Source: a virus. Taken from it: a stretch of 64,000 nt of DNA. Location: positions 13,602 through 77,601 of IMG/VR virus record IMGVR_UViG_3300028197_001952; one strand, written 5' to 3'. Below, one piece after another: positions 21,570 through 50,126 of this stretch (its first letter is position 1; every line of letters starts with the position of its first letter). Below the pieces are notes generated by a model. The model worked only from the letters and a program-made list of their open reading frames with translations, was not told the DNA's origin and did no database searches. Position numbers and translations under genes: made by a program.

Positions 21570-22784
21570 TTACGAAATATATGAATTAATATTTTTTATC
21601 CAAGTTTCTCTATTATCAAAAGTAAGCATATACGTTTTTAGTTTAGCAAACTCGGTATATCTTTGTTGGTGTGTATCTTTACGTATCTGTTTAATACAAA
21701 TATCAAATTCATTTTTTGTTGATGCTCTATATTTGTAATCAACATCCTTTGCCCAATCTGTGTGAATGATTGGTAACTTACCATAATCTATTGCTTGAAA
21801 TATTGAATAACCAAATGGTTCTTTGAAGTATGCCCCATGGAAGATACCAAAATCCTTTCTCATGAAAGAATCAAGAATTTGTGGAGACCATTGATAAAAT
21901 TTAATATTAGGAAACGTATAACTAGTAGTATCTCTTAAATTAACAAAATCATATTTACCAGATAAAATAAATCCACCATGTCCATGCATCCAATGCATAC
22001 ATTTTCTTGTTTCAGCTCTAGAAGCAAATCCTATGTTTTTAAAATTTAGATTTTCGTTAAATGAAATATTGTGTTTAAATTCATAAAAATTAGGAACGGA
22101 ATAGGTGTAATTTGGAAAATCATCTGTAAGTTGTGTTGGGTTATTTCCTACCCAAATTCTTTTGTCAAATGATTGTACAAATTCTTTATAGAAAGCAGAA
22201 TCAACTTTTGTATTAAATTGTAATCTTTTTAATTCTGGCATATGTGTTAGAACTTCTTCCATTTCACTTGGATATGCATGAACAAATAATAATTTAAATT
22301 TGTTTTCATATTTCCAAATGTGTTCTCTTTTATGATAATGTGAATGCAAATAATATATCTCTGAACATTCTTCTAACAAATCAGTTGTTATTTCATGGTC
22401 ATCTCCATGAAAATGCCAATCCAAATCCTCTGGTAAAGATGATGGGTCAAAGTCAACAGGTCTTTTTGAATCAATTAATAATTTCCAATGTTTTCTCCAT
22501 TTAATTCCTTTCCAAATATTTTTTATAAAATGATTTGTCCAAATATCAGCACCACCTTCTATAGTATTACCACAACCAGTAGTAATCATTAGTTTCTTAC
22601 CCATTTTTTTACCATCGGTTGGATTTCTTAATCTTTCTTCAAATGGAAGTTCATTATTAATTTTTGAAACCAACACATCAGTATCTATAAATTCATCTGA
22701 GTTTATTAGGTAATTTACTAACGAAGATGTTAGTTCTTTTTTTTCTTTTTTATATAACTTCATTAATTTTGTTTTTAACCACAA
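21570..22784 (-). CDS. GT4-like glycosyltransferase
   Basis: EGGADIW and EPFGYSIFQAIDYGKLPI. Start is uncertain. Confidence 0.65.
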   Translation of the reverse strand: MWLKTKLMKLYKKEKKELTSSLVNYLINSDEFIDTDVLVSKINNELPFEERLRNPTDGKKMGKKLMITTGCGNTIEGGADIWTNHFIKNIWKGIKWRKHWKLLIDSKRPVDFDPSSLPEDLDWHFHGDDHEITTDLLEECSEIYYLHSHYHKREHIWKYENKFKLLFVHAYPSEMEEVLTHMPELKRLQFNTKVDSAFYKEFVQSFDKRIWVGNNPTQLTDDFPNYTYSVPNFYEFKHNISFNENLNFKNIGFASRAETRKCMHWMHGHGGFILSGKYDFVNLRDTTSYTFPNIKFYQWSPQILDSFMRKDFGIFHGAYFKEPFGYSIFQAIDYGKLPIIHTDWAKDVDYKYRASTKNEFDICIKQIRKDTHQQRYTEFAKLKTYMLTFDNRETWIKNINSYIS

Positions 22785-25700
22785 TATAGAAAACCATATA
22801 CTCCTTCTGATTTTCCTTCTGAATCAAATGTTACATCTTCCATTGCTTTTGCAACAGTATAAGAACATTGTGATTGTCTTTCTTCGTACTGAGGATTATT
22901 ATCTCCATCAAATGAAGTAATTACAAATTCTGATGGTTGTTTCATTAAATATCCTTCAGTATCAGAAGAACATAATAAATCACCTCTTGAAACATTCCCA
23001 CCTTGGTTACATACTTTAAATCCTTCTAAATCTTTAGAGTAACTATCCCCAATCGATGCAACTTTCCAAATTGTTTTTGTATCTCTCTCATTTTCTGGTA
23101 AAGTATTACCAAATGAATCCTTATATTCATCGATAGAACCACTTTCAGTTGTTTTCCATAAAATACCAAGAACATCAGTATCTTTTAAACTTGTTGTTTT
23201 TATTATTTGATTATTAGAATCGAATTTAACTAAATCACCTACTGATATACTTACACTATTTAATTTTAAATACTGGTGACCTCCTGTAAATTGTTGTATT
23301 AAACCAATGTCAGTTGCGTTGGATGCAACTGCTGTTCTAGTTGTAGCAATCGAGTCTGAACCAAATCTAGTTGATTCTTTAAATTTCGCGCCATTTCCAT
23401 CAATTTCAAAAATAGTACTAAATGCACTACTACGTGTACCATCATAAAATTTAATACTAGATTTTATCCTCAAACCATCAGTTGCATCAGGGGAGAATAC
23501 ATCACTAAAAGGTGAACCACCAACTTTAGCAGTAGTACCAAATGATGCAACACCTGAAGAACTTATATTAAAATCTGGTGCTGATATGAATCCACCATTA
23601 TTAATTGTCATACCAGTAGTTGTATTAGCTCCATCACTCCCACCATCTAGATTGGAGGTCGATAATGCACTTGCACTAAGTGTCCATCCACCAATTGTTC
23701 CTCCGGTTGATGTTATATTACCAGTAGAAGCAACTTTGAATACAGGCGTTTGTCCACCGAACTCTATTGTACCATTAGATAAATCAATTCTACCAAGTGC
23801 AACACCTTTATCATCAACATTAGCACTACTAATAGTTCCTGTTGTTATTGCACTACCATTGATTGCAGTTGTATTAAAAGAACCACTTGCTCCATCACTC
23901 AGAGTAGAACCGCTGAACGTTACTAATCCGCTAAATCCTATTGCTTGAGTAGCTGAACCAAATGAAACACTTGCTACTCCACTTCCAGCTGAAGTTTCAG
24001 TTGCGGTATAATCAGCGTACCAATATACATTAGAATTACCCGCTTCATATAATGGTGTTGCTGTACTCCAATTACTTGTAAGTCCTGTAAAGGTATTTGG
24101 AAATGTCATTGATGTTGCACTTACAATACCTGGACTAGTAGCCGAAGAAAGGGTGTAATTAACTCTACCTGTTGCGGTTCTTAATCCATTATCACCAGGA
24201 TCACCATCATCACCAGGATCTCCATCATCTCCTTTTGCTCCATCTTCTGCAAAGTTAGCAAATAACGCAGGTGTTGAGAAATTTCCAAACGTTCCATTTA
24301 CAGAAGTTCTTTGACTAACCCATACATATTTTTGAGTAGCTGAAGTTGTACCCGGAGTAGCAGCCCAACTATCTGTTCCGATTGCAGTTGGTGTATTTGG
24401 AGCTGATGCTGAATTATTAAGTAAGTATGCAAATTGAATACCACCACCTTCTTCACCAGCTTTTGATTTACTTAATGTTTGTGTTTTAGTGAAACTGAAA
24501 CTAGTTCCATTTAAAGTCTTACCACTAATAGTATATGTGATGGTTACAGAATCAGTTCCATCTACCATTGCTGAATGATTTGCAACAAGTGCATTATTTG
24601 ATGAATCTGTTATACCACCAATTGTAATTGTTGTAGATGGAGATTGTGCCGCTGAAACTGTAAAATGACCAGCAGTTGTACCACTTGCATCATAATCCAA
24701 TGCAGTAGCTCCTTCGAATACACTTATTGTAGTTCCACTACCACCATAATCAGAAACAACACCTGCATCAGAAGCAGGTAATACATGAGCTTCGTTGGAT
24801 ACTATTGCTGCTACATTTCCACTTCCTACATCTAATTGTTTTAAAGTAAAACTATCTGCAACACTACCATCAACCGAAGCTGCGGTATAAGTTACAACCA
24901 TTCCATCTACAAAGTTTGCACTTGTAACAGTTGCAGAACCACCACTTGAACTAACTGTTTCATCTGTTAGTGTTCCAGCTGTTTCGGTGAACGCACCATT
25001 TGCCGTTAAGTTTTGTCCATTTGCGGTTAATACAATTGATGATGGAGTTAGTGTACCATCTTGTGCTTTTGTAAATATATTAGATGTTCCACTAAGTACT
25101 ACTGTTTTAGCATTATCTCCAGCAACTCCTTCTACTCCTTCTTTTGCTTTACTTATTGCTTGTGTTTTAGTGAAACTGAAACTAGTTCCATTTAAAGTCT
25201 TACCACTAATAGTATATGTTAATACAACATTAGCTACAGAATTTGACATTGCTGAGTGGTCACCTACAACAGCGAAATCTGTATCTTGTGTTATAGTTCC
25301 AATTGTTAATGTTGAACTTGGAGATTGTGTAACAGAAACATCCCAATGACCGGCAGTTGTTCCTGCTTCATCATAATCTAAAGCAGTTGCTCCCTCGAAT
25401 ACACTTATTGTAGTCCCACTACCTGCGTAGGAAGAAACAACACCTGCTGCATTTGCTGGAAGTACATGAGCTTCATTCGCTAATATTGCGGTTACATTTC
25501 CACTACCTTCATCTAATTGGTTTAATGTTACAGTATCTGCAATTGAGCTATCATCAGAATGTGCAGTATATGTTACAGTCATTCCATCTACGAAGTTTGC
25601 ACTTGTTACAGTTGCAGAACCACCAGAAGTGTTTTCTGTTTTATTTGTAAGTGTTACTGAAGGTGAAGTGGTAAATGAACCTTTTTTAGTTAAGTTTTGA

Positions 25701-28700
25701 CCATTTGCAGTTATTACGATTGATGTTGGACTTAAAACACCAGCTCTATTTTTTCTAAATATTGGTGATGCTGAAGTTAAGGTTATTGTTTTGGCATTTG
25801 TACCAACTACTCCTTCCCTTGCTTTTGAAAAACTTTGAGTTGTTGTACGTGTGAACGCTTCCCCTCCAAGTCTTTTTCCTGATATTGTATAAGTTAAAAC
25901 AACAGAATCAACACTCATTGCTGATGGAGCTGATATTGTTGCAAGTGTTGTTCCGTTACCGCTAATCGTTCCTTCTGTTAGTCCCCCAACATCTTCTATA
26001 GTAATACTAAACTCTCCGTTTGTAGGTGTTCCTGTTGTAAACGTGAGAATATTACCTCCTTCATACACTTCTATTAGAGTTCCCCCTCCAGTAAAAGAAC
26101 TTATGGCTCCAGTTGCAGTTGCAGGATATGTGTGAGATGAATTAGAATTAGTTATTTGTATTGCATCTTGTCCTGCTCTACCCTTGGTAATACTTTGTTG
26201 AAATGAACCACTAAATAATTCTCCATTTAGTTTTTTACCTGCATATGGATATGAAATATTAACTGCATCAGTATCAAGTGCCATTGCCGTATGGTCTGCA
26301 ACTACTGCGTGTTGTCCACCATCAGTTATAGTACCAACTGTTACCTTACCAGTAGGAGTAACTACGGTTGTTAATAAATCCCACTCACCATCTCCGGTTC
26401 CTGATGGTACATATGAAAGTAATTGTGCTCCTTCAAATATACTTAAATCTGCTCCACTATTAGAAAAATCTGTAACTGAACCGGATGCATCTGCTGGAAA
26501 CATATGTGATTGGTTTGTATTTAAAACAGTCAAACCATCTGTTCCTGTATCTACCCTAACGATTGATACATCATCTTGAAATGTAGTACCATTTTCAGAA
26601 CCACTTACACTAATTACGGTTTGAACCGTATCTGACATTTCTGAAGATGCTATGGTTCGTGTTGCACCACTTCCACCTAATGTAATACCATTTGTTGCAT
26701 GAAACGATAATGATCCTGAAATATTATCTTTAGCTGCAGTAATGGTTATACTAGATGGAGTAATATTACCATCTTTTCCTTTTATAAAAACTTGTCCTGA
26801 TGATTGTAGTGAAACCGTTTTTGCACTAACCCCATCTTCTCCATCAGAAATAATATACCAAGTTTCGTTAATTGTATTTTTTTGTTGAGTTCCTGGGTCT
26901 GTAAATACTGCAGTTACATTTATATCTTTGGATGCATAAGCATTTCCAAATGGTATATTTGTTGAATCACCATCTGCCGCTGTCATTACTATATGACCAT
27001 TTCCACTTTGTCCAGCAGCAGGACTTGCAATTGTTAAGTTATCTAAAGGGTCATTAAAACTAGGTGTAATTGTTGTGGATAATCTATACTCACTACCAGT
27101 TGTATCAAAAAATATTGCGGTTGCGGTTAAGGATGCTGGATCATATGATGAACTTCCTACCAATCTTCTTGTAACTTTACCATTAGATGCTACAAACGAA
27201 CCTCCACCAAGACCATCGGTAACATCTACCAATGCTATAGTATCAAGCAATGTTCCATCATCTTTTCGTAAATGATATGTTGCTTGTCCATTTATTGCAC
27301 TACTATTAAGAACTGGATTATAAGTTACTCCATTTCCACCATCACTTGTTCCTAATAATGAAGTAGTAAGAAGAGTACTTCCACTATAAATTTGAGCATC
27401 TCCTTGAGAAGAACCACTCACATCAAATGAACCAGTTCCATCAATACCTTGTACTTGTAATTCTAAAGTAGCCGTAGGTATATGTGATCCCAACGAAGGT
27501 TTATTACTTCTTCCTGCATTTTTTATTTGTGTACCTCTTAATGGTCTAATAAAAAATGTTGGTTTTACATCTTCTCCAGGTTTTACAAATATAATACTTT
27601 CAGTATCCGATGCTATTTCTGTTGTATTATCAAGTGCCTCAGAAACACCAACCCTAAATGAAAGTGGTGTACTTATAAAATTAGCTGGTGGTGTAAATGT
27701 TGTAGTTTTACTATTAGCAGTAGTTCCATCAGAAAATGATGTTTCATCGGTAAAATGTGATCCTCCACCTGTAAATTTAAAATGTGCATTTCTAAAATTA
27801 GTAGAACTTGCAGATATAGTTACAGAAGATGGTGATGGGTTTGTTCCATTTGCATCATACATAATAGAATTATCACTAAATGATAAACCTACTTTTTTTG
27901 ATGGTGAACCCTCTGAAGCAACCCCAACTAAAAAATTAATTGTTTTTCCTGTAAACTCAGTTCCTTCTGAATTTGTTAGAGATAATGTGATAACTCCACT
28001 TACTGCAGTTCCAGATGTTGGTGTATTTGGAGTAATTGTTCCATTATTATTATTTGTTCCATTTGTTACACCAGTAATTTTAAATTTATTAGCAGTGACT
28101 GTTCCTGTTGTGTGTGTGAAATCTGTAGAACCTTGGTTTACACTAACACTTACATTCGATGGTGTAGTAAATGTAAGAAAATCGTACTCAGAACTTACAT
28201 TTTGAGTTTGTGGATTTGCTATTATTGTTGTAATAGGTTTTGCTTCTCTAATACGAGATATACTTGCAACAATATTTTTAGTACCAGATGTTCCCTCACC
28301 ATCTGTAAAGTTTACTGGAATAGTAATGGTTTCTGTATCAGATAACATATCATCCGCAGTATCACTAAATGTAATAGTATTTGATGATACCGTTCCACTC
28401 AATCCTCCACTAAAAGTAGGAGTTGAAATTGAAGTAAATCTATTAGTTCCACCCTCTGTTGCTTTTACTTCAATAGTTTTAGGTGATTCAGAACCACTTC
28501 CTACTGAATTTGCATTTATTCCTTGTGATTGTAAGTTTACACTTACCTCTACATTTGGAACTGCTTTTTTAGATTTTGTATAAGATACAATTTTTTGAAA
28601 TGATTGGGATGTTGCATTATCACCTGCAAGATATTCTATGTTTAAACTTAATGAACCACTATCGTGTTGATTTGGAAATGCAGATATACCATACTCTGAT

Positions 28701-31252: not shown

Positions 31253-31305
31253 AGAAATATATCTTTCCAATATAAATATTTAGAAAAAATATTTACTCAT
31301 ATATA

Positions 31306-38264: not shown

Positions 38265-39488
38265 TTAAAAATCTAATTTAACTTTTATTAGTACTTCTTT
38301 ATCGTATGATTTAGGAATCGGTTGTGATGTTTTAGCCACCGCAATAATTTCATTAGCATCATTCATCAATCCAATTGTTGTAATAAATGTTCTTGGGTCT
38401 TTTTCAAATGTTGATTCAACAAATGAATTATCAGAACCAGTTACAAATGTAGGATTGTTTGAGAAGTTAAACTCTCTGTTTGTAGCTCTTACAAAGAAAT
38501 GAGAAGTAGAAACATTTTCTGTTCTTCTTGCTTGGAAATCACCACCACCTTTAAGTGCGTTATGTAGAAGGTAATGATTTTGCCCTTCATATGCAGTTCC
38601 TGCATATAGAGATGCTCCTCTATTTGAACCACTGTCTATTGATGTTCCGATTAAAGAATGAACAGCAACAGGATTAAGTACAACCAACCCTTGGTCTGGA
38701 TAAAATCTACCTAAACCAGCTCCGTTTGAAGCAGTTATAGAGTTAATTGTTGCTTCGTTTTCAGTTCCTAAGTTTAATGAACCACTTGCTACATTAAATA
38801 CTCTACCTGATTTTCCTACATCATCTGAGAATTTCTTTCCACTATCATCAATTAGAGTGTGTGTTCCTGTAGAACCACTTAAAATCATTGACCAGTTTCC
38901 AGCATCCATTTTTTCCTTATAACGAGCACGAGAAACATTTACAACATAAATATCATTTGCATTAGTTTCTGCACCAAGGTTATCTGTGAATGTGAAAAAC
39001 TCTTCACCAGCATCTAATAATATAGATTTGTATTGTGCGTAAGTTGCTTTACTTGCTAACGTTGATGAATCAGATGTTGTTAAATCAACAGAACCACTTG
39101 CAAATTTATGTCCATATGCAACTGCATATTGTACAGCTGCTGAACTTATAGTAGCAGGGTCTTTATCATATACATTAACATAGTAGTTTTTACTAGCAGC
39201 GGTTTGTGCTGATGATGTGTTGAAAGTACTTAAACTTCCAGTATCACCACTCCAAAGACCTGTTGTTACAACTTCTATCTTTCCGTTTACTTGATCAAAT
39301 TCACCAAATCTTTTATAGATACCATTAGAGATAGAACCTCCAGTTGCACCTAATTTATCTCCACCTGATAGGTATTGATTGGTGATTTTCATTATTTGCT
39401 CAGAGGTCAAATTACCTTGATTAGCATCTAGATAGTTTGCTAATTCCTGTGATAAATTTGTTCCAGCTTGTCCGTTTATTTGTGCCAT
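38265..39488 (-). CDS. virion structural protein (paralog of 37024-38178)
   Basis: EFNFSNNP and TTIGLMND..EIIAVAKTSQPI. Confidence 0.65.
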   Translation of the reverse strand: MAQINGQAGTNLSQELANYLDANQGNLTSEQIMKITNQYLSGGDKLGATGGSISNGIYKRFGEFDQVNGKIEVVTTGLWSGDTGSLSTFNTSSAQTAASKNYYVNVYDKDPATISSAAVQYAVAYGHKFASGSVDLTTSDSSTLASKATYAQYKSILLDAGEEFFTFTDNLGAETNANDIYVVNVSRARYKEKMDAGNWSMILSGSTGTHTLIDDSGKKFSDDVGKSGRVFNVASGSLNLGTENEATINSITASNGAGLGRFYPDQGLVVLNPVAVHSLIGTSIDSGSNRGASLYAGTAYEGQNHYLLHNALKGGGDFQARRTENVSTSHFFVRATNREFNFSNNPTFVTGSDNSFVESTFEKDPRTFITTIGLMNDANEIIAVAKTSQPIPKSYDKEVLIKVKLDF

Positions 39489-39533: not shown

Positions 39534-40181
39534 TTATAATCTTCTATCCCTTACAAAAGGTTGTTTTAGAATTACTTCTACCGGTATAGTTTGTGAACCA
39601 CCAGTTTCGTTTCCGTAAACGGTAATAGTTGTTTTGATACTTTGTGTTAAATTTGGGTTTGGAATAAAAACAAAATTTAATCCAGTTTCAATAGCCGCAG
39701 TTGCAGTTAATTCATCACCTAAAAATGTTGGTGTTGTTCCTGCTCCAGCTGCTAATCCTTGTCCAACTATAGAACCTGCGTTCTTGTTAGCTAATATCAT
39801 AGTATATCCACTTTGTGTGTTACCACTAGGTGAAGTTGTTGGGGAAAGTGCTACTTTACCAGATTCAGGTCCTACCTTTAAACTTGGAATACCAAATTCT
39901 ACTTTAGGAATCTTAACAGTTCCTTTTGGTAAAGTTACCAATTTATATTTTAATACTTGTGTTTCATCTGGAGAAGCTTCCGTAATTGGAATTGCTTTGA
40001 TTGCTGCATCATAAAATGCACTACCCTTTGGGTGTGCTGGTTCATATAATGTGTAATCTACCTCATCATCACCTAATGCGAATTTTGAGATACTAAGTCC
40101 TTCACCTGCTGCTAGCTTTTCTCTACCCTTTTTGGTAAGAATAGCATCAACTGTTATTTCTGCGTTATTTAAATAAGCCAT
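39534..40181 (-). CDS. baseplate / fibre-attachment structural protein
   Basis: VDAILTKKGREKLA...KFALGDDEVDY resembles the N-terminus of tail-collar/fibre-anchoring proteins. Confidence 0.6.
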   Translation of the reverse strand: MAYLNNAEITVDAILTKKGREKLAAGEGLSISKFALGDDEVDYTLYEPAHPKGSAFYDAAIKAIPITEASPDETQVLKYKLVTLPKGTVKIPKVEFGIPSLKVGPESGKVALSPTTSPSGNTQSGYTMILANKNAGSIVGQGLAAGAGTTPTFLGDELTATAAIETGLNFVFIPNPNLTQSIKTTITVYGNETGGSQTIPVEVILKQPFVRDRRL

Positions 40182-40262: not shown

Positions 40263-43200
40263 TTAATCTACTTCTAAGATAGGTTCACCACTTCCTCTAC
40301 CACTATCAGATACTCTTAATGTATTCGGATTAGTTGTAAATGTTTGTACAGGAGAACCACCATCTAAAGTAGTTTTACTTGTTTGTTTAGAACCATTTGA
40401 GAATGAATTTTCCAATCCACTTGTTAAATCGCCAACGTTTCTATAATGATATGGTACATAACCATCTAATGGTACAACACTAACAATATTATTACCTGTT
40501 ATTGAACCAGAATCTGCAAAATTTCTAAAACTTATTTTTTTTCTTTCGAATGTTTGTGTTACAAAATGTCTTCCCATCGATGAATCTGATGAATTTATGT
40601 TTTCTGGAACATCTACCGTATAACTTTCTGTTATAACGTCAACTCTCTTTCTTACTTTGTAGAAATTATTATCTTTATCTAGTTTAGTAATAATAGCATG
40701 TCCGTTTTCACCATATAAACCAAAACCAGCTACTGTTAGTGAATCGGGATCCATACCCACTTGATTAAAAATAGTTCCATCAAACTCACCTTGAATAGAA
40801 CCAGTAATAGATGCATCTATATTAAATGATATTCCTGCCATATCAGAACCACTATTTCTTGTAATAAACCCTTGTTCTTTTGTTAAGTTATTTATATCCA
40901 ATGTTGCATTAATAGTTTGATATGAACCTACTAAGTTAGTTGAAGTTGTTGAATCTACCAATCCATTAAAGTCATTTTTATTACCTTTTAACTTAGTATC
41001 ATCTTGTGCAGATAATTTACCCGATACAACATTATCTGTAGATTTAATGGTGTGCTCTACCTTTACTACTCCTGCATGGTTATGAGGTGATGCCGTTGTA
41101 GGTCTTTGTTCTATCTTACTTCTTTCAAGAATGTGAGGAGATATTAGTATACCAGTTGCTACTTTTGCTCTTGCTGGTACAAGTGATTCTAATACATCGA
41201 ATAAAGATTTATCTATATATCTAACTAATTGAATATATTCTCCAATATTTAAATTAAATCTTTTAAAGTAATAATTTCTTAATTTAGATAGTTCACCATA
41301 TTCTGTTTTAAATGCATCACCAGGATCTCCAATGTAATTATCTATTTCAAAACCACCAAGTGATTTCATAATATCTAAATTAATTTCTTTGGTAGGTGAG
41401 AAAAACAATCCTAATTTATCAGAATCAAGTGGTGCTTGGTCTAATGATTTTTTAGTAGCTCTACTTCTGTATGATAAATCTGTTATTTTAGTTTGGGTTT
41501 CAAATCTTACTTTATTACCAGGTGCAAATCCACTAGATGGTACTTGTGCAGTTACACTTCTATCATACACAACATATTGATGTGGATAATCGGTAATTGA
41601 TGTAAAGTTAGAAGCAGTTACAAATGAACTATATGTTGTATCTATTGAAACATTCTTAATAGATGTATCTCCCGCTGAACTTCTATCCTTTGGATATTCA
41701 AAATCTAATCTAAGTAATAAATCTTCAGTAGATGATGATATGTGATTTCCATTAATAGCTTCTGGCATTAATGTATGGTCTTTAATTACAGATTCACTCA
41801 AAGGAGCAGACCATAATCTAAATTCATCGATAGAACCAGTTAACGTAGAACCACCAAGTGTTAATACATTTCCAGATTCCCATCCACTACTTCCACTTGG
41901 AGTTGATATCGCAGTAAAAGCAGTATTTCGTATTCTTCCATCTACTCCCTCCTTCAAATAAACATTAAATGTATCTTCTGTACTTCCTGTAATTCTATTT
42001 ACATTAATCTGTGCGTACTCATCATTAAATACTACAACTTGTTCTGTTGAAGATGATACATAAGTAGCTCCATTTAATATGTTAAATGTTAATTTAGCAA
42101 GTGAACCAGAATCAAGATAATCAAGATCTAAACTCCATCCATTTGCACTTATTAATCTTTGGTCTTTTTTCTGATTTGTATTTAATCTAAATTCTACTGA
42201 GTTTGGATAATATTCTTTATGAGATTTCCATGGTACTACTATAGAATTACTTCCACTAATATTAATTGAAGATGTTCTATCGTCATATGTAAATGTACTA
42301 GTTCCATTCCCAGGTTGAGGTCCTCCAAATTCCATTACAGTCAACATTGACTGTGGGATTCCATAACAACTTAATGCAGCTGATATAGCTCTTCGTGTAC
42401 CTTTATTTTTTTGTAGATATGGTAAGTTATTAAGCAATCTTCTCCATATTTCATTTTGCCTATCCTTACCACTCATTGTGGTTGCAGTAGAACCATCTGA
42501 ATTCTTACCAAATGCATATTCCCAAAGTGTTTGAGATTGTGCACCCATATCAGCATCCCATCCTAGGGATTCTAACATGTGATAAATTAACTTATCATTA
42601 ATTCCGTTTTCAAACTTATGTTCTAATTGTTTTGTTTGAGATATTCCCTTTATATGTAACCACAACACATCAAAGTGTTGTCCTACCATATCAAAGAATA
42701 ATGGGAAAGTAGATCCTTCTGGATCATTTTTTATATGTAGTGGTAAGTTATTAACTAACCTAGAACTATTATCTGCATCGAAATTAGAAGCACTTACAAT
42801 CGTATTTTCATACCAGTTTAATGATGCTTGATGTGTTGATGCTGATAATGCATTCTGTCCTGCTCCTGGATATGTAATATTACTTATAGATGAACTTGTG
42901 AATAAGAATTTTTCAAAAGAATCAAATCCTTTTTTTACTTCACTTATCTTACCAAGTGTTCTTTGTGCTTCATTTGTTACTGCAACTGAACTTGATGCGG
43001 CTCCTGTGATATTACTTGATACTCCACCAAATTCAATAGAACTTCCGGATACCAATCCACCATATCGTTCTTCATATGATTGAATTAGTTTAACCTTATA
43101 AACAAAGTTTTCAACTCTCTCTACAGCAGATGAATATTTTACAAAATTACCAAAATCGATTGACCTACTAGGGTGTTCTAAGGAATATGTTCCTGTTGAA

Positions 43201-45659
43201 CCTTCCCCTTCTACTAACTTTAAATCAGATGTAACAAAATTTATGTTTAAATGGTCTAATGCGAAATCTGAAGATGATACAAATTGGTTAACAACATCGG
43301 TTGATGATTGAGAACCACTTGAAATTAAATCATCTAAAATTTGATAACCAATTACATCATTTGTTTCTAATGCAAAATTAGGAGTTAATGGTATACAATT
43401 TTTTGAAATATCATCAACTATTGTGATTTGGTCAATTATAGGTATTGCCTGTAATTTTGATATCCAAAGAGAATCATTTAAATTAACACTAGCAGGAAGT
43501 GGTTCATATAGTTTTAAAACAAGTGATTTCTCTATATTAGTATATTCTACATCATTTGTTTCAGGATTGGTAACTTTATCTGAGAAAGTTGTTTCATCAA
43601 TTCCCCATGTTGCGATTAACTTATTATTACCTTCTCCTAAATGTAGATAGTGAGTTAAGAATGGAGAAATTGAATCTTGAAATATTGAGGAATCAAAACG
43701 ATTTACAAATGCATTTCTAATATCTGCAACAACATCTCCTCTTCTAAGATTTAAATCTCCAGCTTCGAATGAAATACTTATTTTTTCAGTTTTACCTGCA
43801 GTTAATGAATCTCCTTCTGAGTTATATGGTATTAATACTAAATCAAATTGTATTACTCCTTTAACTTCAACAGGTTTTATTTTTAAAGAGTTTAATTTTT
43901 GTAAAACATCTTTTACATTAAATGATGATACACCTGATTCTGAAAACCGTCCTAGTGATGATGTATTACTTTCACGTCCGGCATAAATCTTAATATAGTT
44001 AGTATTAATAGATTGCCAACTAATTTGAAATGGAACATTATTTCCCTTAAAATCTGCTCCTATAATGTTTTGTGGGTATTCTATGTTTGTAATATCAGGA
44101 CCAGGTATAAAAGCTCTACTTTCAACCGTTACTGATACTTTTGCGTTCTGGCTACTACCTCCTTTGTTAGAAAGTGCTTGTAAGTAAATAGTGTAATTAC
44201 CTACTCCATTATAGAAATCAGCATTACTTAGTACTAAACTACCATTTGTTTCAATTTCTCTTCTTGTTTTACCAAGAGTATAAATTACTTTATCTGCATT
44301 AACACTTCTATATGGTATTTTGACCGTTTCTTTATCAGCTAAATTTAGTTTAACTCTACTGATATCAACCGCTATACTTGGTTCGAGTGGAGATTCTTCT
44401 ACTGCAACTTTTGTAGCATTAACTACAATGTTAGTTTGTCCTGCAACTAAATCAAGAGTAAGTTCTTTAGTTCTATTAGTTTGATTTTGTCTATTACTAG
44501 GTGTATTGTATTTAAAAGATACCGTATGTGTAAAATCAGAAATACCAACAGAAGAAAATGTTATAGATGGAATTTTTTTAGCTCCTGCTATTGGGGTGTG
44601 TTCTAAATCAATTTCCCCATCAGATAATAAAAATCCACCCTGTCCCCATGATGTTTTATATTGTATTATATTATCAGAAGAAACGAAGCTTTCTATATTT
44701 ACTTCAATTGGAGTATTAACAATAGGATCTTCTTTCGGGTCTTCATTTATAATTACCTTTGTTAAATCAAATGGTAGATTAGCAAACTGAGATTTGTTAA
44801 TTGTATCTGTTATTGTATTTATTTGATTTAATAGAGGAACTTCCTTTCCATTCTTTTCTAATCTAAATTCATAGTAATCAAATTCTACTGTACTAACTGG
44901 TCTTGGTGCTTTAGGAATTCTATCTTTAGTAGGTGCAGAGTAACCTAAACTTCCTTGAGCAGAACTAAATCCACCTGTGCCTCTTCCTATATTATCGTTA
45001 AATTCAATACCTCTACCTCTAGTTTGAAGACCAAAATCATCAAAATCATTATTTCCAATAGGTATTAAATTTGGATTTACATTATCATCAAATCCCGGAC
45101 CTCTAACATTTATATCAAGTTGGTTATCAAATAAATCAAATAAATCAACTACAGGAGCTACTGTTTTAGTGAATTTTTTCTTTGTAGAATATAGTTTGTA
45201 TTCATCTTCTGAAGTAAAACCTGCTTTTACTATCTTGAAATACTGTGGTGTTAGTAGTTGTTTTCCAGTATAGTTGTATACCTTAGCTGGTGTTGATAAT
45301 GTATCCTTACCATTTAACATGATACTACCACCATTAGTAGAAGTAACATTAACTTGTATAGTTCTACTTTCTGATAATACTGTTGGTGGTTTTGATGGAT
45401 ATTTACAAGTACCATTATTAACAGTAGCTGCTTGGTTATAGTTTGTTGCATTTCTATCAGTACATCCACTTATGACAGATACAGTTCTTCCACCTCCGCC
45501 TCCACCAGAACCACGTCCTCCTCCACCAAGGTTTTGGACAAAATCTATACCTTCACCACCACCATTGAGGTTACTTCCATCTCCGAATCCGTCTCTTGAT
45601 CCTAGATTTTCGTTTCGGTTGTTACTACCTCCATCTAAATATTGATTTCCTCTAGCCAT
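40263..45659 (-). CDS. large baseplate wedge-type protein with LamG-like domain (1798 aa)
   Basis: WRRLLNNLPYL..NKGTRRAI (P2 gpI/gp7-like), TGSIDEFRLW (LamG) and one GCTD repeat. Confidence 0.65.
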   Translation of the reverse strand: MARGNQYLDGGSNNRNENLGSRDGFGDGSNLNGGGEGIDFVQNLGGGGRGSGGGGGGRTVSVISGCTDRNATNYNQAATVNNGTCKYPSKPPTVLSESRTIQVNVTSTNGGSIMLNGKDTLSTPAKVYNYTGKQLLTPQYFKIVKAGFTSEDEYKLYSTKKKFTKTVAPVVDLFDLFDNQLDINVRGPGFDDNVNPNLIPIGNNDFDDFGLQTRGRGIEFNDNIGRGTGGFSSAQGSLGYSAPTKDRIPKAPRPVSTVEFDYYEFRLEKNGKEVPLLNQINTITDTINKSQFANLPFDLTKVIINEDPKEDPIVNTPIEVNIESFVSSDNIIQYKTSWGQGGFLLSDGEIDLEHTPIAGAKKIPSITFSSVGISDFTHTVSFKYNTPSNRQNQTNRTKELTLDLVAGQTNIVVNATKVAVEESPLEPSIAVDISRVKLNLADKETVKIPYRSVNADKVIYTLGKTRREIETNGSLVLSNADFYNGVGNYTIYLQALSNKGGSSQNAKVSVTVESRAFIPGPDITNIEYPQNIIGADFKGNNVPFQISWQSINTNYIKIYAGRESNTSSLGRFSESGVSSFNVKDVLQKLNSLKIKPVEVKGVIQFDLVLIPYNSEGDSLTAGKTEKISISFEAGDLNLRRGDVVADIRNAFVNRFDSSIFQDSISPFLTHYLHLGEGNNKLIATWGIDETTFSDKVTNPETNDVEYTNIEKSLVLKLYEPLPASVNLNDSLWISKLQAIPIIDQITIVDDISKNCIPLTPNFALETNDVIGYQILDDLISSGSQSSTDVVNQFVSSSDFALDHLNINFVTSDLKLVEGEGSTGTYSLEHPSRSIDFGNFVKYSSAVERVENFVYKVKLIQSYEERYGGLVSGSSIEFGGVSSNITGAASSSVAVTNEAQRTLGKISEVKKGFDSFEKFLFTSSSISNITYPGAGQNALSASTHQASLNWYENTIVSASNFDADNSSRLVNNLPLHIKNDPEGSTFPLFFDMVGQHFDVLWLHIKGISQTKQLEHKFENGINDKLIYHMLESLGWDADMGAQSQTLWEYAFGKNSDGSTATTMSGKDRQNEIWRRLLNNLPYLQKNKGTRRAISAALSCYGIPQSMLTVMEFGGPQPGNGTSTFTYDDRTSSINISGSNSIVVPWKSHKEYYPNSVEFRLNTNQKKDQRLISANGWSLDLDYLDSGSLAKLTFNILNGATYVSSSTEQVVVFNDEYAQINVNRITGSTEDTFNVYLKEGVDGRIRNTAFTAISTPSGSSGWESGNVLTLGGSTLTGSIDEFRLWSAPLSESVIKDHTLMPEAINGNHISSSTEDLLLRLDFEYPKDRSSAGDTSIKNVSIDTTYSSFVTASNFTSITDYPHQYVVYDRSVTAQVPSSGFAPGNKVRFETQTKITDLSYRSRATKKSLDQAPLDSDKLGLFFSPTKEINLDIMKSLGGFEIDNYIGDPGDAFKTEYGELSKLRNYYFKRFNLNIGEYIQLVRYIDKSLFDVLESLVPARAKVATGILISPHILERSKIEQRPTTASPHNHAGVVKVEHTIKSTDNVVSGKLSAQDDTKLKGNKNDFNGLVDSTTSTNLVGSYQTINATLDINNLTKEQGFITRNSGSDMAGISFNIDASITGSIQGEFDGTIFNQVGMDPDSLTVAGFGLYGENGHAIITKLDKDNNFYKVRKRVDVITESYTVDVPENINSSDSSMGRHFVTQTFERKKISFRNFADSGSITGNNIVSVVPLDGYVPYHYRNVGDLTSGLENSFSNGSKQTSKTTLDGGSPVQTFTTNPNTLRVSDSGRGSGEPILEVD

Positions 45660-45662
45660 GTA

Positions 45663-45686: not shown

Positions 45687-47723
45687 TTATAACTCTCTTG
45701 GGGTTCGTGGTCTTTTCAAAACAACTTCATCTCCTCTACCACGAGAAAGATCTAAATTTTCTTCAAGATTAAATTCAAAATTATCTGCATATCCTGTTCC
45801 TGTTCCTCTTCCTCCAGTTTGTGTACCTGTTCCAATAACTATTGGTGTTGATATAGGAGTTGTTGGTGGTTTCACTACCGGTTTTGGTTGTGGTGGCAAA
45901 GGTGGTGGATTTGGATTAGGTTTTGGTGATGGAGGTGGTGTTGGTTTTATAACAACAACTGGCGGTGTTGGTTTAGGTTGTTGTGTAACACAAGGTCCTA
46001 ACTCAATACATACAATACCAGGTCCTTTTGATATAGAACCTTTTTGAGCACATATAGTTGTTGTATCACCAGGTAGTAAATTACTCGATGTTTTGGTATT
46101 ACCCACTGCATCTTTATATGTTACTGATAATGGAACTGTTACTACACCACGTCCAGGTTTTTGGAAAAATCTATTTCTTTCAAAACCACCCATTCCACGA
46201 TTACCTTTGTTTTGGTTCATTGAACGATTATCAGCTCCAGGTCCATAATTATTCATATAATCTTCATTTATTCCACCCGCAGGAGATAGTAGATTTGGGA
46301 AGTTGTTACTATTTCTAACACTATACATACGAGTTGATACTGTTTTAACTGGTTTAGGCGTTTCCCTAACATCTCCACTAAACTTAATAGTGGCTTTATC
46401 ATATGTGATGTTAAATGAATCATACTCAACTCCGTTAACAATCTTTGAATTTCCATTTTGCTTATATTTGATAGTTCCGGTTGCTGACCATACATAATAG
46501 TTTTTAGTAATTGTATCAACTCTACCTTTATATTTACACGTACCATCATCCTTAGTAGCATTTCTATTATAATTAAGTGCAGCTGGATCGGTACATCCTT
46601 TGATTGCTGGTTCTTCTTCTTCAACTTCTTCAACTTCTTCAACTACTTTATACCTACAACTACCATCATTATCTTGTGCCAATGAATTGTAATTTTCAGC
46701 TTTGGGGTCAGTACATCCCCTTACTCGTGCATTAACTTTATCTGGAACAGTTGAAGTAAATGATGAATTAGCTGTAACAGATTTCAATATCTGTGAAACT
46801 TTGTCAAATGTTATTTGTTCTTCTTTACTTAAAATACTATCTCTTTGTATATCTCTTTTTGGTAAATAAAAATCAATAATATTAATTAAAGATTGTTGTG
46901 CATCTCTTTCTAGTTGTGGTATTGATAAATCAATACAATCCGATTTGTCTCCCAATGCATTACCATAATTTACATCATTAATACTCCAATTTCTATTTGA
47001 AGCATAATAATTCATTGATTCAATAAATTTTGTTTTGATTCTGTTTATTAATATTTCAAAACTAGGTATATTGAATTCTGTTTTAATTGTATTTATATAT
47101 TCAACTCCATCACTTTCTGTTCCTTTTGACATTAAGAAATCTTGAAGTATTTTTTCTAAATCTAAATTTTCAATAAAAACGTTAATATAATAAATTACAT
47201 CATCTCTAAATGTTGTATTATCAAGAAATACATTTAATCTTTTTTCTAAATCTTTGTTTGCTCCCTTTGCTCTATTCGGTAAAATTCTAATCTCAGTTCT
47301 TGATGCGGATATCTCATGTACCCATAAATTATTTTCATCAGGAACATCTGTACCCAATCTTCTATTTAAAAGAGTTACTTGAGTTTTGAATATTCCATTA
47401 GAATATCCCGCTTCTCTAATTAATTTTTCAATATCTACTATAAATTCAGGAGTTCCGTTTGATTTTTTAGTAAATTCATTATCTGAAATTATAAAGTAAT
47501 CGTTAATATTTACATCATCAATATAAATGTATCTTACTAACTTACCATCATCTCCTTGTGGTAGTTGGTTTTCACTTGAATCAAATAATATAAATTCGAT
47601 CATATCAGAACAACCTAACCCAAAGTTAGATTTAGATATTTCTTTTTCAAATACCTTTCTATCTTCAGAGTCAACCTTGTACCCTTTTCTATCAATAATC
47701 TCTTTAAATCCCTCTATCGCCAT
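45687..47723 (-). CDS. putative virion protein with two GCTDP repeats and a Pro-rich tail
   Basis: EISASRTEIR, two GCTDP..NYN..DG.C.Y units and a PKPTPP region. Confidence 0.55.
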   Translation of the reverse strand: MAIEGFKEIIDRKGYKVDSEDRKVFEKEISKSNFGLGCSDMIEFILFDSSENQLPQGDDGKLVRYIYIDDVNINDYFIISDNEFTKKSNGTPEFIVDIEKLIREAGYSNGIFKTQVTLLNRRLGTDVPDENNLWVHEISASRTEIRILPNRAKGANKDLEKRLNVFLDNTTFRDDVIYYINVFIENLDLEKILQDFLMSKGTESDGVEYINTIKTEFNIPSFEILINRIKTKFIESMNYYASNRNWSINDVNYGNALGDKSDCIDLSIPQLERDAQQSLINIIDFYLPKRDIQRDSILSKEEQITFDKVSQILKSVTANSSFTSTVPDKVNARVRGCTDPKAENYNSLAQDNDGSCRYKVVEEVEEVEEEEPAIKGCTDPAALNYNRNATKDDGTCKYKGRVDTITKNYYVWSATGTIKYKQNGNSKIVNGVEYDSFNITYDKATIKFSGDVRETPKPVKTVSTRMYSVRNSNNFPNLLSPAGGINEDYMNNYGPGADNRSMNQNKGNRGMGGFERNRFFQKPGRGVVTVPLSVTYKDAVGNTKTSSNLLPGDTTTICAQKGSISKGPGIVCIELGPCVTQQPKPTPPVVVIKPTPPPSPKPNPNPPPLPPQPKPVVKPPTTPISTPIVIGTGTQTGGRGTGTGYADNFEFNLEENLDLSRGRGDEVVLKRPRTPREL

Positions 47724-49063
47724 TATCCTTTTTTATTTTTTCTAACCTTCCAAGTAAGGTCTTCTATTTTTACATTACCAGTACCATCTTCAAATTCAAT
47801 TTCTATTTTAAATTTACCACTATAATCTCTCGCTTTGTTAGTCCATGATTTTGGTTTTGGTTTATTCTTTCCACCAATTGATTTTCTAAAGTAAAATGGT
47901 TCTGAATATTCTTGTCCTTGTTCAATATTTACATTTACTGATTGTTTCATTCCACTACTATCATTACCAAGACCTATTACTTTTCCTTCAATACCTCCAC
48001 CAGATGTTTGTATTAATTTAATCTTAGTTATTTTCTTCCCATCATCTCTAAGATTCTTTACCTTTATTACACCAGCTTTACCACTAGATTTTGCTTTTTT
48101 CCTTGCAGTTGTCCATTTTGCACCGTTTTCTTCACCAGGATCCTGGTCACTTACAACGGCAAAATAAACTTCATTACCAGCAGTTGGTGTTAATCCACTT
48201 GCTGCCGCCGCACTTTCTGCAGCTGCTCCTGATACTTGACTTTCCAGTTGTGATACAATACCTTTTTGTACTTCAAGGAGTTCTTTTAAGGTAGCTTTTT
48301 GTGCTTGTAATCCTCGAACTTGTGCAGTAAGAGAAACTCTCTCTATACCTTCCTTAGTACCTTTAATAAGAGACTGTTGGAAATCTGATAATAGTTTTGT
48401 AAACCTATCATTTGCAACTTCGGTCTCATCTTCAGCAGCTGCTCTTTGTAGTAATGCAGAATCTTCTGAGATTTCTAGTTGTGCTACAATGCTTCTTAAT
48501 TCTTCACTAATTGCTATTTGTTCATTTAACTCTACTACCTTTTCTTGTAATTCTCCTACTTTGGAATCAAACCTTGCTTGAAGTTTATCATATTTTTCCT
48601 TAAGTATAAAAGGACCTTTTTTAGGTTTTTGTTTTTTTATTAACTCATCAACCTTAACATCTAAAGATTTTTGTAGTTCCTGTTCGTTATATTTTGGCTT
48701 TTCAATGTATCCAGATGTTTCTCCACTAAATCTTTCTTGTTCTTCTTGTATAGTATCAAATTCATCGGTATCTATCCAATCTGATTTATATTTTACAGAA
48801 TTTGGATTTTTTGTATCTCGTATTGGTTTCATACCATACTTAACAAATGGTCTTTTCTCTTTTAACCAACTAACAGATTTACCTCTTTTTTTGAACTTAA
48901 CAAATTGTTTTGCATCTTCTTTAGATAATTTATTTGGGACATTTCTCCCATCCATTTTGCGCACCATGATAGAACCAGTTTTTTTATCTCTAGTTTTATC
49001 TATTTCTTTAGAACCTTTTTTTAAAAGTTCACTAACTCTATAATCTTCAGGTTTAGCTGCCAT
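47723..49063 (-). CDS. coiled-coil hypothetical protein
   Basis: Heptad-rich centre; lies in the structural operon. Confidence 0.5.
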   Translation of the reverse strand: MAAKPEDYRVSELLKKGSKEIDKTRDKKTGSIMVRKMDGRNVPNKLSKEDAKQFVKFKKRGKSVSWLKEKRPFVKYGMKPIRDTKNPNSVKYKSDWIDTDEFDTIQEEQERFSGETSGYIEKPKYNEQELQKSLDVKVDELIKKQKPKKGPFILKEKYDKLQARFDSKVGELQEKVVELNEQIAISEELRSIVAQLEISEDSALLQRAAAEDETEVANDRFTKLLSDFQQSLIKGTKEGIERVSLTAQVRGLQAQKATLKELLEVQKGIVSQLESQVSGAAAESAAAASGLTPTAGNEVYFAVVSDQDPGEENGAKWTTARKKAKSSGKAGVIKVKNLRDDGKKITKIKLIQTSGGGIEGKVIGLGNDSSGMKQSVNVNIEQGQEYSEPFYFRKSIGGKNKPKPKSWTNKARDYSGKFKIEIEFEDGTGNVKIEDLTWKVRKNKKG

Positions 49064-49064
49064 T

Positions 49065-50126
49065 TTACAATTCTACGGTGAATGTCAAATCTTTATCTTC
49101 AAAGTATTCTATTACACCATTTCTATTTATCTTTGTTTCAATATAATAATCTCTATTAATTTCCCAATTTGTTAAATTTAATTTAAAGAAGTGTCCGTTT
49201 GCATCACAACTAACTTTAGTATAGGTATCATCAAATGGAACAACTACTTCACCAGTTACTATATCTTTAATTTGATAATAAACGGTTGATGGTAAGTATT
49301 TAACATCTTTATAAGAATATGTGTTGGCGTAAGTCTTAAGAGGATATTTTTCTCTTGCAAAAACTCTTATTGTTGGTTTACTTCCTCTCTTATATGTAGT
49401 TTTTAATCTTTTGAATGTTACATGTATATCATCTGATGTAAGTTCTGTGAGAGAACCAGTATTATACGTAGAATCATCCCAACCAATTCTTAATTTAGGT
49501 TGGTAAATAGTATTTGTTTCTTTTGAAAAGAATTTTAACTGTCCATAATCTTCAGTATCATTTTCTAATGCAGAATCATGCATTAGGATTAATCCATTAT
49601 TTGGGAATGTACCTGCCACCCACTTATTAATTGGTTCTAATATGTTCATTGCCATATCAGCTGATTGATATTCAAATGATTGAGATACTGCAGAACCAGT
49701 TAGCCACATTCCTCCCTTACCATTATGTGAACCTGAACTCTCTAATGAAGCTGAACCGATTAACCAATTAGAAGAAGATGTTCTCTTGTTCCAAGTACAA
49801 CCATCGGTTGATATTTTATCAAATCTAGTACCAATACCACCATCCCATGATTGAGAAATTGCATATCCGTATATTGTGTAATCTGTTGGAATCTCTACAG
49901 ATTCACATTCTCTAAGTACTAAATCTGCGGATGATGCCGTGATTTCTCCACTTGCGATTGAAGAAGATATTTCATTTGTATTAAATTGAATTAATGTATG
50001 TGCAATATCTTTTAAATTACCATAATATGTTTTAGATATTTCCAATATCTCATCTCTACCAGTATTTTGAGATGGTTGTTGTAAATAAATTGTTGAATCT
50101 TTTGATGCTGTTACGAAATAATACAT
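49065..50126 (-). CDS. virion structural protein
   Basis: KDSTIY..NTGRDEILEI, NNGLIL and FFSKET..IYQPKL; directly follows the gp6-like gene. Confidence 0.6.
   Translation of the reverse strand: MYYFVTASKDSTIYLQQPSQNTGRDEILEISKTYYGNLKDIAHTLIQFNTNEISSSIASGEITASSADLVLRECESVEIPTDYTIYGYAISQSWDGGIGTRFDKISTDGCTWNKRTSSSNWLIGSASLESSGSHNGKGGMWLTGSAVSQSFEYQSADMAMNILEPINKWVAGTFPNNGLILMHDSALENDTEDYGQLKFFSKETNTIYQPKLRIGWDDSTYNTGSLTELTSDDIHVTFKRLKTTYKRGSKPTIRVFAREKYPLKTYANTYSYKDVKYLPSTVYYQIKDIVTGEVVVPFDDTYTKVSCDANGHFFKLNLTNWEINRDYYIETKINRNGVIEYFEDKDLTFTVEL

What the first reader, a model, noticed from the sequence alone, without database searches (positions are those of the whole stretch)
22775..50126. [S/T]-[G/A]-S tripeptide enriched in virion proteins: candidate phage O-glycosylation sequon
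Seen (counted by eye): the 384-aa protein 37024-38178 has SGS x5, SAS and TGS, including YISGSVNPSVSGSWDDYDASASYDPTGSY. The 407-aa protein has SGS x4, TGS x2 and TAS. The 353-aa protein has five such sites. The fibre and the 1798-aa protein have many. I found none in the 1052-aa Mre11-Rad50 or in MetK. Sites are scattered rather than tandem, often after a hydrophobic residue. Known: Ser-Gly is the eukaryotic GAG attachment dipeptide. Inference: these are selected acceptor sites for the neighbouring glycosylation machinery.
Basis: partly seen in the sequence, partly recalled or inferred. Interest (0 to 1): 0.85.

Follow-up and report, generated by a model that had tools for sequence, protein, structure and literature searches.

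The report
Serine tripeptide tag on phage tail proteins
The outer baseplate and fibre proteins of this uncultured marine phage and about 100 relatives carry Ser/Thr-Gly/Ala-Ser five to eight times too often while neighbouring proteins avoid it, so it looks like a tag read by another factor, most plausibly a sugar-attachment site, though no attached sugar has been shown.

Summary
[ST][GA]S, with SGS as its core, is 4-8x over composition-shuffled expectation in five proteins: 384, 407, 353, 1798 and 2831 aa. The other 45 proteins have SGS 0 vs 3.7 expected. GSS, SSG and SGT are not enriched, and codons vary, so the signal is in the protein. The same orthologous families are enriched in Microcystis phage Mel-JY01, the Flavobacterium immuto phages and every related metagenomic locus examined (about 100). 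The 215-aa, 678-aa, gp6 and primase families are depleted (0.08-0.34x). Motif residues are more conserved than other Ser/Thr. About half the sites turn over in position, and a few homologues fold without them. T4 shows no excess. Pelagiphage HTVC008M shows only about 2x.

A trans-read modification tag, most likely O-glycosylation, fits best, but nothing shows a glycan. The neighbouring island is not the conserved reader. Relatives with the motif carry non-homologous GT clusters, and the clade-conserved GT-B pair is absent from this contig and from a 128-kb sister contig.

Earlier agents of this scan already reported the same motif on other genomes of this phage group. I found no published description.

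The parts
37024..38178 (-). 384-aa outer baseplate/fibre-attachment protein, paralogue of the 407-aa protein; 7 motif sites
   Evidence: 7 vs 1.02 expected; its family across loci has [ST]GS 305 vs 38.6, 7.9x
37159..37335 (-). Cluster of six sites (SGS x4, SAS, TGS), largely within a segment that aligns to gaps in the orthologues and paralogues
   Evidence: a lineage-specific insertion studded with sites
38265..39488 (-). 407-aa protein, member of a very large phage family (1735 representatives at 50% clustering); 7 sites. Family-conserved sites lie at 39090-39098, 38778-38786 and 38433-38441
   Evidence: AF2 model pLDDT 82.7, with sites at strand exits, a hairpin turn and loops
39534..40181 (-). 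215-aa conserved module protein that avoids the motif
   Evidence: 0 sites here; its family across 94 orthologues has [ST]GS 2 vs 24.1 expected, 0.08x
40263..45659 (-). 1798-aa baseplate/fibre protein with a weak LamG-like segment. All 14 sites lie in residues 781-1719 (window 40503-43319); none in the first 780 residues
   Evidence: family 624 vs 122.6, 5.1x
45687..49063 (-). 678-aa and 446-aa module proteins with one site each, at expectation
   Evidence: the 678-aa family is at 0.14x across loci
49065..50126 (-). 353-aa protein directly downstream of gp6; 6 sites. The TGS at 49452-49460 is conserved in three cultured or published relatives
   Evidence: 6 vs 0.71; WDDS.Y.TGSL is conserved; family 6.5x
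50126..52582 (-). gp6-like baseplate wedge (671 aa) and gp25-like protein (144 aa); motif-poor inner baseplate
   Evidence: PHROG and Pfam hits; the gp6 family is at 0.34x
22775..31270 (-). 2831-aa giant distal fibre; 28 sites with no periodic spacing
   Evidence: SGS 17 vs 4.7, p=9e-6; site gaps of 6-454 residues; family 5.5x
1..22784 (-). Glycan-biosynthesis island that continues upstream of the window. It is the candidate elaborating machinery, but it is specific to this sublineage
   Evidence: Two GT7+LamG proteins (16345-17820, 18221-19660), a GT2, a Ugd-like protein, two cytidylyltransferases, two radical SAM enzymes and a methyltransferase. GT7-LamG orthologues occur only in sister contigs G001, G012 and G014, with a weak hit in G006
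36165..36743 (-). Sulfotransfer_2-family gene next to the fibre genes
   Evidence: Pfam E=4.7e-14

Best explanation
Phi-Phi-[S/T]-[G>A]-S-Phi, with no Pro after it and few charged residues nearby, is a short linear motif under selection on the outward-facing baseplate and fibre proteins of a large clade of aquatic myoviruses. It is most likely read in trans by a soluble enzyme in the infected cell, and the leading candidate is a glycosyltransferase that O-glycosylates one of the two hydroxyl residues. Lineage-specific enzymes would then extend the glycan; in this phage that would be the GT7-LamG, UDP-sugar dehydrogenase, nonulosonate, methyl-, sulfo- and carbamoyl-transferase island, giving a probably anionic coat. 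Shown: the enrichment, its specificity, its conservation, the avoidance in neighbouring proteins, and that the fold tolerates its loss. Inferred: that it is modified, that the modification is a sugar, which residue is the acceptor, and which enzyme initiates.
For: Order-specific enrichment that composition cannot explain. Pooled over all 27 module proteins of three phages: SGS 96 vs 18.4, TGS 59 vs 15.3, SAS 32 vs 13.5, TAS 28 vs 11.2, but SGT 18 vs 15.4, so position 3 is strictly Ser. Selection acts on the protein: AGTGGTTC occurs 19 times on the coding strand, all in frame 0 and all in the five enriched genes. Five families are enriched 5-8x and neighbouring families are depleted to 0.08-0.34x across about 100 loci. 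Motif Ser is conserved at 0.94 vs 0.73 for other Ser, and substitutions stay within the class, SGS<->TGS and TGS<->TAS. About half the sites in 150 diverse homologues lie outside conserved columns. Motif-poor homologues carry unrelated residues at the conserved columns. Sites lie in coil, at strand exits and in an insertion. T4 baseplate and fibres show no excess, 5 vs 4.9. Every complete motif-rich genome has a GT cluster. The related 484-kb phage, where the motif fades, lacks the RfaG-like GT. Nucleoside analysis of immuto DNA found only three canonical nucleosides plus fdPreQ1 and reports no glycosylated base, so its GTs probably have a non-DNA target (PMC10516641).
Against: There is no chemical evidence of any modification. 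No enzyme is shared between this contig and the relatives' GT clusters. The clade-conserved GT480 and RfaG-like pair is undetectable on this 77.6-kb contig and on the 128-kb sister contig G001, although the motif is at full strength there. The GT co-occurrence test has only one negative lineage, and that lineage still has a GT480 homologue. About half the sites in the 407-aa family sit in a few conserved columns at strand ends, which a structural role could also explain. HTVC008M fibres show a mild 2.5-3x excess.
Confidence: 0.5

Rival explanations
1. A structural motif. [ST]-G-S caps beta-strand C-termini or forms tight turns that these beta-rich baseplate and fibre folds need for folding, trimer packing or avoiding aggregation. 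No enzyme reads it.
For: In the 407-aa family, positions 131, 235 and 350 keep the motif in 56-72% of diverse homologues. Sites are twice as frequent in the last two residues of strands and almost never occur at strand starts. Hydrophobic flanks fit strand context. The motif persists in a sublineage where the conserved GT pair is undetectable.
Against: Thr is not accepted at position 3, and SGT, GSS and SSG are not enriched. The motif is shared by at least four families that show no detectable similarity to each other. Strong avoidance in neighbouring proteins is not expected from a fold element. Motif-poor homologues replace the conserved columns with unrelated residues. Half the sites turn over in position. 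T4 fibres show no excess.
Confidence: 0.25
2. A tag for a different trans-acting factor or chemistry: phosphoglycosylation or glycerol-phosphate addition (a TagD-like cytidylyltransferase lies at 17817-18230), phosphorylation, acylation, or recognition by an assembly chaperone.
For: The same selection signatures as the best explanation. The initiating glycosyltransferase cannot be identified. The island encodes cytidylyltransferases, radical SAM enzymes, a methyltransferase and a sulfotransferase.
Against: No kinase or dedicated chaperone was identified. Glycosyltransferases are the most consistent accompanying genes across the clade.
Confidence: 0.15
3. An artefact of composition, low complexity, internal repeats or a DNA-level word.
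For: The proteins are rich in Ser, Gly and Thr. HTVC008M's S/T/G-rich fibres show about 2-3x by the same test.
Against: Per-protein shuffles, flat permutation controls, no periodic spacing, varied codons, and an 8-mer that occurs only in frame. The enrichment is replicated in about 100 loci at 35-77% identity.
Confidence: 0.03

Closest known systems
Mycobacteriophage virion O-glycosylation (Che8, Corndog, Myrna; Freeman et al. 2023, as cited in PMC12619734; the paper itself is not held, so details are from memory)
   Same: Phage-encoded glycosyltransferases are proposed to decorate the phage's own structural proteins in the host cytoplasm.
   Different: There the glycans sit on C-terminal tails of capsid and tail-tube subunits and were shown by mass spectrometry. 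Here the candidate sites are a defined tripeptide scattered over outer baseplate and fibre proteins, nothing has been shown chemically, and the GT sets are unrelated.
Bacterial autotransporter heptosyltransferases (TibC/TibA, AAH/AIDA-I; PMC4358343)
   Same: A cytoplasmic GT-B enzyme modifies many serines, but not threonines, on loops of a beta-rich surface protein. The modified Ser often precedes a small residue.
   Different: No Glyco_transf_9 or BAHT-type domain was found among the proteins scanned. The donor there is ADP-heptose. The substrates there are 19-residue-repeat beta-helices, not phage fibres. No defined tripeptide sequon is reported.
Maf-type flagellin O-glycosylation with nonulosonic acids (PMC11339370)
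   Same: Cytoplasmic modification of surface-exposed Ser/Thr set among small apolar and hydrophobic residues. This island has a CMP-nonulosonate-synthetase-like gene.
   Different: Flagellins have no conserved sequon, and no Maf domain was detected here.
Eukaryotic glycosaminoglycan attachment at Ser-Gly
   Same: Ser-Gly lies at the core of the site, and GT7, UDP-glucose dehydrogenase and Sulfotransfer_2 family genes lie nearby.
   Different: Acidic flanks are depleted, not enriched. No GT14 domain was found. Motif-bearing relatives lack GT7 and have ordinary bacterial-type GT clusters.
Bacteroidota general O-glycosylation sequon D-(S/T)-(A/I/L/V/M/T)
   Same: A three-residue O-glycosylation sequon centred on Ser/Thr.
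   Different: It requires Asp before the acceptor and acts in the periplasm. Here position -1 is hydrophobic, and the proteins assemble in the cytoplasm.

Membership tests
Phage virion O-glycosylation (mycobacteriophage type) | Phage-encoded glycosyltransferases in the same genome | tested here: met
   Two GT7, a GT2 and weak GT-B/GT47-like hits in the island; GT clusters in the relatives
Phage virion O-glycosylation (mycobacteriophage type) | Glycan demonstrated on structural proteins | not testable with these tools
   Needs mass spectrometry or glycan staining of virions
Phage virion O-glycosylation (mycobacteriophage type) | Sites on C-terminal tails of capsid and tail-tube subunits | tested here: not met
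   Sites are internal and lie in baseplate and fibre proteins. Capsid and tube genes are not on this contig
BAHT autotransporter heptosylation | TibC/AAH-type heptosyltransferase (Glyco_transf_9-like GT-B) | tested here: not met
   No such Pfam or NCBIfam hit among the 52 distinct proteins scanned, 42 from the window and 10 from relatives. The contig is partial
BAHT autotransporter heptosylation | Ser-only acceptor specificity at many sites on a beta-rich surface protein | tested here: inconclusive
   Position 3 is strictly Ser, with SGT not enriched, but the acceptor residue is unknown
Eukaryote-type GAG attachment (xylosyltransferase sequon) | Acidic residues flanking Ser-Gly | tested here: not met
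   E is at 0.4-0.7x and D at 0.4-0.8x around the sites
Eukaryote-type GAG attachment (xylosyltransferase sequon) | GT14 xylosyltransferase initiating enzyme | tested here: not met
   Not detected by Pfam in the island proteins
Eukaryote-type GAG attachment (xylosyltransferase sequon) | GT7, UDP-Glc dehydrogenase and carbohydrate sulfotransferase families present | tested here: met
Maf flagellin glycosylation | Maf (MAF_flag10) transferase | tested here: not met
   No hit in the Pfam scans
Maf flagellin glycosylation | Hydrophobic or small neighbourhood of glycosites, and a CMP-nonulosonate pathway | tested here: met
   Hydrophobic residues at 51% at -1 and +1; CTP_transf_3 gene at 3534-4196
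Bacteroidota D-(S/T)-(A/I/L/V/M/T) sequon | Asp immediately before the acceptor | tested here: not met
   Position -1 is enriched for V, L, W, I and F. DGS is enriched only in immuto
Serine-rich-repeat GtfA/GtfB system | GtfA/GtfB equivalog pair | tested here: not met
   The clade-conserved GT480 and RfaG-like pair match no named NCBIfam model above its cut-off

The most novel reading that the evidence does not exclude
A large, globally abundant clade of aquatic myoviruses, infecting hosts as distant as Cyanobacteria and Bacteroidota, uses a defined tripeptide sequon, Phi-[S/T]-[G/A]-S-Phi, to direct cytoplasmic O-glycosylation of its outer baseplate and fibres. The attachment code stays conserved while the glycan-building genes are swapped wholesale between lineages, here for a eukaryote-like GT7, sulfotransferase and nonulosonate island. 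It would be the first sequon-directed protein glycosylation system described for phages.
Probability: 0.35. Interest if true: 0.85.

Novelty: new variant of a known kind. Interest (0 to 1): 0.62.

Why it matters
If the motif is a glycosylation sequon, phage receptor-binding machinery in a dominant group of ocean and lake phages is sugar-coated according to a readable code. That would affect host recognition, protease and grazing resistance, particle stickiness and antigenicity. It would also provide a compact cytoplasmic O-glycosylation tag for glycoengineering. The idea is directly testable because two relatives are cultured (Flavobacterium immuto phages and Microcystis phage Mel-JY01). If the motif is structural instead, it is still a strong family-spanning sequence rule for a set of unsolved baseplate and fibre folds.

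Tried and rejected
I did not retype it. I enumerated all tripeptides programmatically instead.
- The AF2 model of the 353-aa protein, built from a shallow alignment, was unusable (pLDDT 49.7).
- The good 407-aa model found no fold match: Foldseek against PDB gave no hit at E<=0.001, and the best VIA-align Z was 4.7, to phage baseplate parts.
- I looked for more motif-poor lineages. P0263, P0300 and P0333 in IMG/VR and two metagenome scans gave no close relatives that are motif-poor.
- BLAST, phmmer and hhalign of the clade-conserved GTs against every ORF on this contig found nothing.
- NCBIfam and relaxed Pfam scans named no initiating transferase.
- Freeman et al. 2023 is not held, and no paper on Mel-JY01 was found.
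- A DNA-level motif and internal repeats were rejected.
- The HTVC008M control was not fully clean, at 1.9x overall.
Full report
**Context.** All long ORFs in the window lie on the minus strand of a low-GC (about 30%) contig. The contig is a 77.6-kb fragment of a virus record. The region contains the following genes:
- a gp25-like protein and a gp6-like baseplate wedge at 50126-52582;
- then, downstream on the minus strand, proteins of 353, 446, 678, 1798, 215, 407 and 384 aa;
- a Sulfotransfer_2 gene, a GIY-YIG endonuclease, a primase and a fused Mre11-Rad50;
- a 2831-aa fibre;
- a glycan island holding two GT7+LamG proteins, a GT2, a Ugd-like dehydrogenase, two cytidylyltransferases, two radical SAM enzymes and a methyltransferase.

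| Protein | Observed | Expected |
|---|---|---|
| 384 aa | 7 | 1.0 |
| 407 aa | 7 | 1.7 |
| 353 aa | 6 | 0.7 |
| 1798 aa | 14 | 4.7 |
| 2831 aa | 28 | 15.9 |

- A scan of all 8000 tripeptides singles out SGS: 17 vs 2.7 in the four smaller proteins and 17 vs 4.5 in the fibre. GSS, SSG and SGT sit at expectation.
- The other 45 proteins are depleted: SGS 0 vs 3.7, and the broad motif 3 vs 12.0, P=2e-3.
- Ser codons vary. The commonest DNA word for the motif, AGTGGTTC, occurs 19 times on the coding strand, always in frame 0 and only in the five enriched genes. The signal is therefore in the protein.
- Site spacing in the fibre is irregular, with gaps of 6-454 residues, so this is not a repeat unit.

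**Specificity.** I pooled all 27 proteins of the module in this phage, Mel-JY01 and immuto, without selecting by motif count:

| Tripeptide | Observed | Expected |
|---|---|---|
| SGS | 96 | 18.4 |
| TGS | 59 | 15.3 |
| SAS | 32 | 13.5 |
| TAS | 28 | 11.2 |
| SGT | 18 | 15.4 |

Position 1 is therefore Ser or Thr, position 2 is Gly more often than Ala, and position 3 is strictly Ser. From 1632 unique contexts, hydrophobic residues are enriched at -2, -1 and +1 (about 51% at -1 and +1, vs 33% background). Pro is almost excluded at +1 (0.1x), and K, R and E are depleted throughout ±6.

**Distribution across relatives.**
- The syntenic module of Microcystis phage Mel-JY01 and of Flavobacterium phage immuto shows the same enrichment in the orthologous proteins. 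So do all 80 IMG/VR loci retrieved with the 407-aa family, and a further, more distant set of loci.
- Summed by orthologous family over about 100 loci, [ST]GS splits into two groups:

| Family (window protein) | Ratio observed/expected |
|---|---|
| 384 aa | 7.9x |
| 407 aa | 6.7x |
| 353 aa | 6.5x |
| 2831-aa fibre | 5.5x |
| 1798 aa | 5.1x |
| Mre11-Rad50 | 0.68x |
| gp6 | 0.34x |
| primase | 0.31x |
| 678 aa | 0.14x |
| 215 aa | 0.08x (2 vs 24.1) |

- These sums are not phylogenetically independent.
- T4 baseplate and fibre proteins show no excess: SGS 5 vs 4.9, and the broad motif 11 vs 17.6.
- The unrelated low-GC marine myovirus HTVC008M shows 1.9x overall and 2.5-3x in three giant distal proteins. 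This control is not fully clean, but it is well below the clade's values.

**Signs of selection.**
- Among 120 close homologues of each of the 407- and 353-aa proteins, motif Ser and Thr are more conserved than other Ser and Thr (0.94 vs 0.73, and 0.86-0.97 vs about 0.67). Substitutions stay within the class, for example SGS/TGS at 65/55 at one site.
- In 150 diverse representatives of the 407-aa family (1735 representatives at 50% clustering), [ST]GS is 666 vs 103 expected. Roughly half the occurrences lie in six conserved columns and half are scattered.
- Eight of the 150 have at most one site. In the four of these that were aligned, the otherwise conserved columns hold unrelated residues, so the fold does not need the motif.
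- Orthologue alignments show both fixed sites and turnover. A lineage-specific insertion in the 384-aa protein carries four SGS.

**Structure.** The 407-aa protein gives a good AF2 model (pLDDT 82.7, pTM 0.70) with no recognisable fold match in the PDB. Its seven sites lie at strand C-termini, at one hairpin turn, and in loops, one of them disordered. Across the 134-sequence alignment, motif starts are about 2x enriched in the last two residues of strands and 1.4x in coil, and they almost never occur at strand starts. This pattern fits exposed loops, but it also fits a strand-capping role. Exposure could not be computed.

**Which enzymes?**
- Both cultured relatives carry GT clusters. These share a syntenic core: a 480-aa GT-B, an RfaG-like 436-aa GT-B and a small GT2.
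- The RfaG-like gene is present in 3 of 3 IMG/VR genomes that are at least 90% complete, and in a 75%-complete one. It is absent from the 484-kb uncultured phage LR756508, where the motif fades to about 2x and the orthologue of the 353-aa protein has no site. That phage does keep a GT480 homologue.
- Nucleoside analysis of immuto DNA found only three canonical nucleosides plus fdPreQ1 (PMC10516641). This argues that its GTs do not act on DNA.
- No ORF on this contig resembles any of these GTs by BLAST, phmmer or hhalign.
- In Mel-JY01 the GT cluster sits between MetK and the deformylase gene. Here those two genes are separated only by a 116-aa ORF.
- The 128-kb sister contig G001 has MetK, the fibre module and GT7-LamG genes, but neither conserved GT.
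- GT7-LamG genes mark only this sublineage: G001, G012 and G014.
- The robust statement is therefore that motif-rich genomes always carry some multi-GT cluster. It is not that one conserved GT always accompanies the motif, and not that the neighbouring island selects the sites.

**Verdict.** The best-supported reading is a motif read in trans on exposed parts of the outer baseplate and fibres, most plausibly an O-glycosylation acceptor whose glycan is elaborated by lineage-specific genes (confidence about 0.5). A structural strand-capping motif is the main rival (about 0.25). Another modification or binding factor comes next (about 0.15), and an artefact is effectively excluded.

**Comparison with known systems.**
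- In function it most resembles cytoplasmic multi-site Ser glycosylation of beta-rich surface proteins, as in the BAHT enzymes (PMC4358343), and Maf-type flagellin glycosylation with its hydrophobic neighbourhood (PMC11339370).
- As a phage phenomenon it most resembles mycobacteriophage virion glycosylation.
- It fails the membership features of each of these systems.
- The eukaryotic GAG sequon analogy fails on flanking residues.

**Earlier work in this scan.** Earlier agents reported the same motif on other genomes of this phage group and reached similar conclusions. I treated those notes as leads only. My data agree on the enrichment and on selection. They add that in this window's sublineage the conserved GT pair is not detectable on the available contigs. 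I found no published description.

Noticed in passing
window 22775-50126 (the five enriched genes): The first Ser of SGS uses AGY codons in 25 of 34 sites, vs 30% of all Ser codons in these genes. The third Ser uses TCN in 27 of 34. AGT is one step from ACT (Thr), which fits S/T toggling at position 1.
   Followed up: partly
window + strand, whole window: AGTGGTTC also occurs 5 times on the non-coding (+) strand, more than a naive base-composition estimate of about 0.5. No codon-aware expectation was computed.
   Followed up: no
window 60953-62823 vs Mel-JY01 78.8-92.9 kb (L017): MetK and the peptide deformylase gene are separated only by a 116-aa ORF here. In Mel-JY01 about 12 kb lies between them, including a PD-(D/E)XK nuclease, GuaB and the GT cluster.
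   Followed up: partly
L017 11442-12933 (Mel-JY01 83441-84932): The Mel-JY01 orthologue of the conserved 480-aa GT is annotated as two ORFs and reads through one TGA. It may be a split gene, a broken gene or a sequencing error.
   Followed up: no
window 40263-45659: All 14 sites of the 1798-aa protein lie in residues 781-1719 and none in the first 780 (0 vs 1.4 expected). This suggests a buried N-terminal part and an exposed C-terminal part, the latter with a weak LamG-like hit at residues 1156-1292.
   Followed up: partly
window 56971-58674; HTVC008M 1306-2751 (L128): A Nol-like carbamoyltransferase lies inside the baseplate gene region. The unrelated pelagiphage HTVC008M encodes one too, and its giant distal proteins show a mild 2.5-3x [ST]GS excess.
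   Followed up: no
G006 (IMG/VR, 218 kb, direct terminal repeats) about 197-201 kb: This complete relative has a weak GT7-like N-terminal hit about 2 kb from its conserved RfaG-like GT, so GT7 genes can coexist with the conserved GTs.
   Followed up: no
window 22775-22784: The 2831-aa fibre ORF overlaps the start of the following 404-aa ORF (21570-22784; no family hit) by 10 nt, which suggests translational coupling. The 404-aa protein could be a fibre chaperone or an unrecognised enzyme.
   Followed up: partly
window 38265-39488 and 37024-38178, C-termini: The last 70 or so residues are the most conserved part of the 407/384-aa family: four invariant positions (N341, N345, A383, K386) across 134 sequences. 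An earlier scan note reads this as the C-half of a split P2 gpH-type collar domain; that was not tested here.
   Followed up: no
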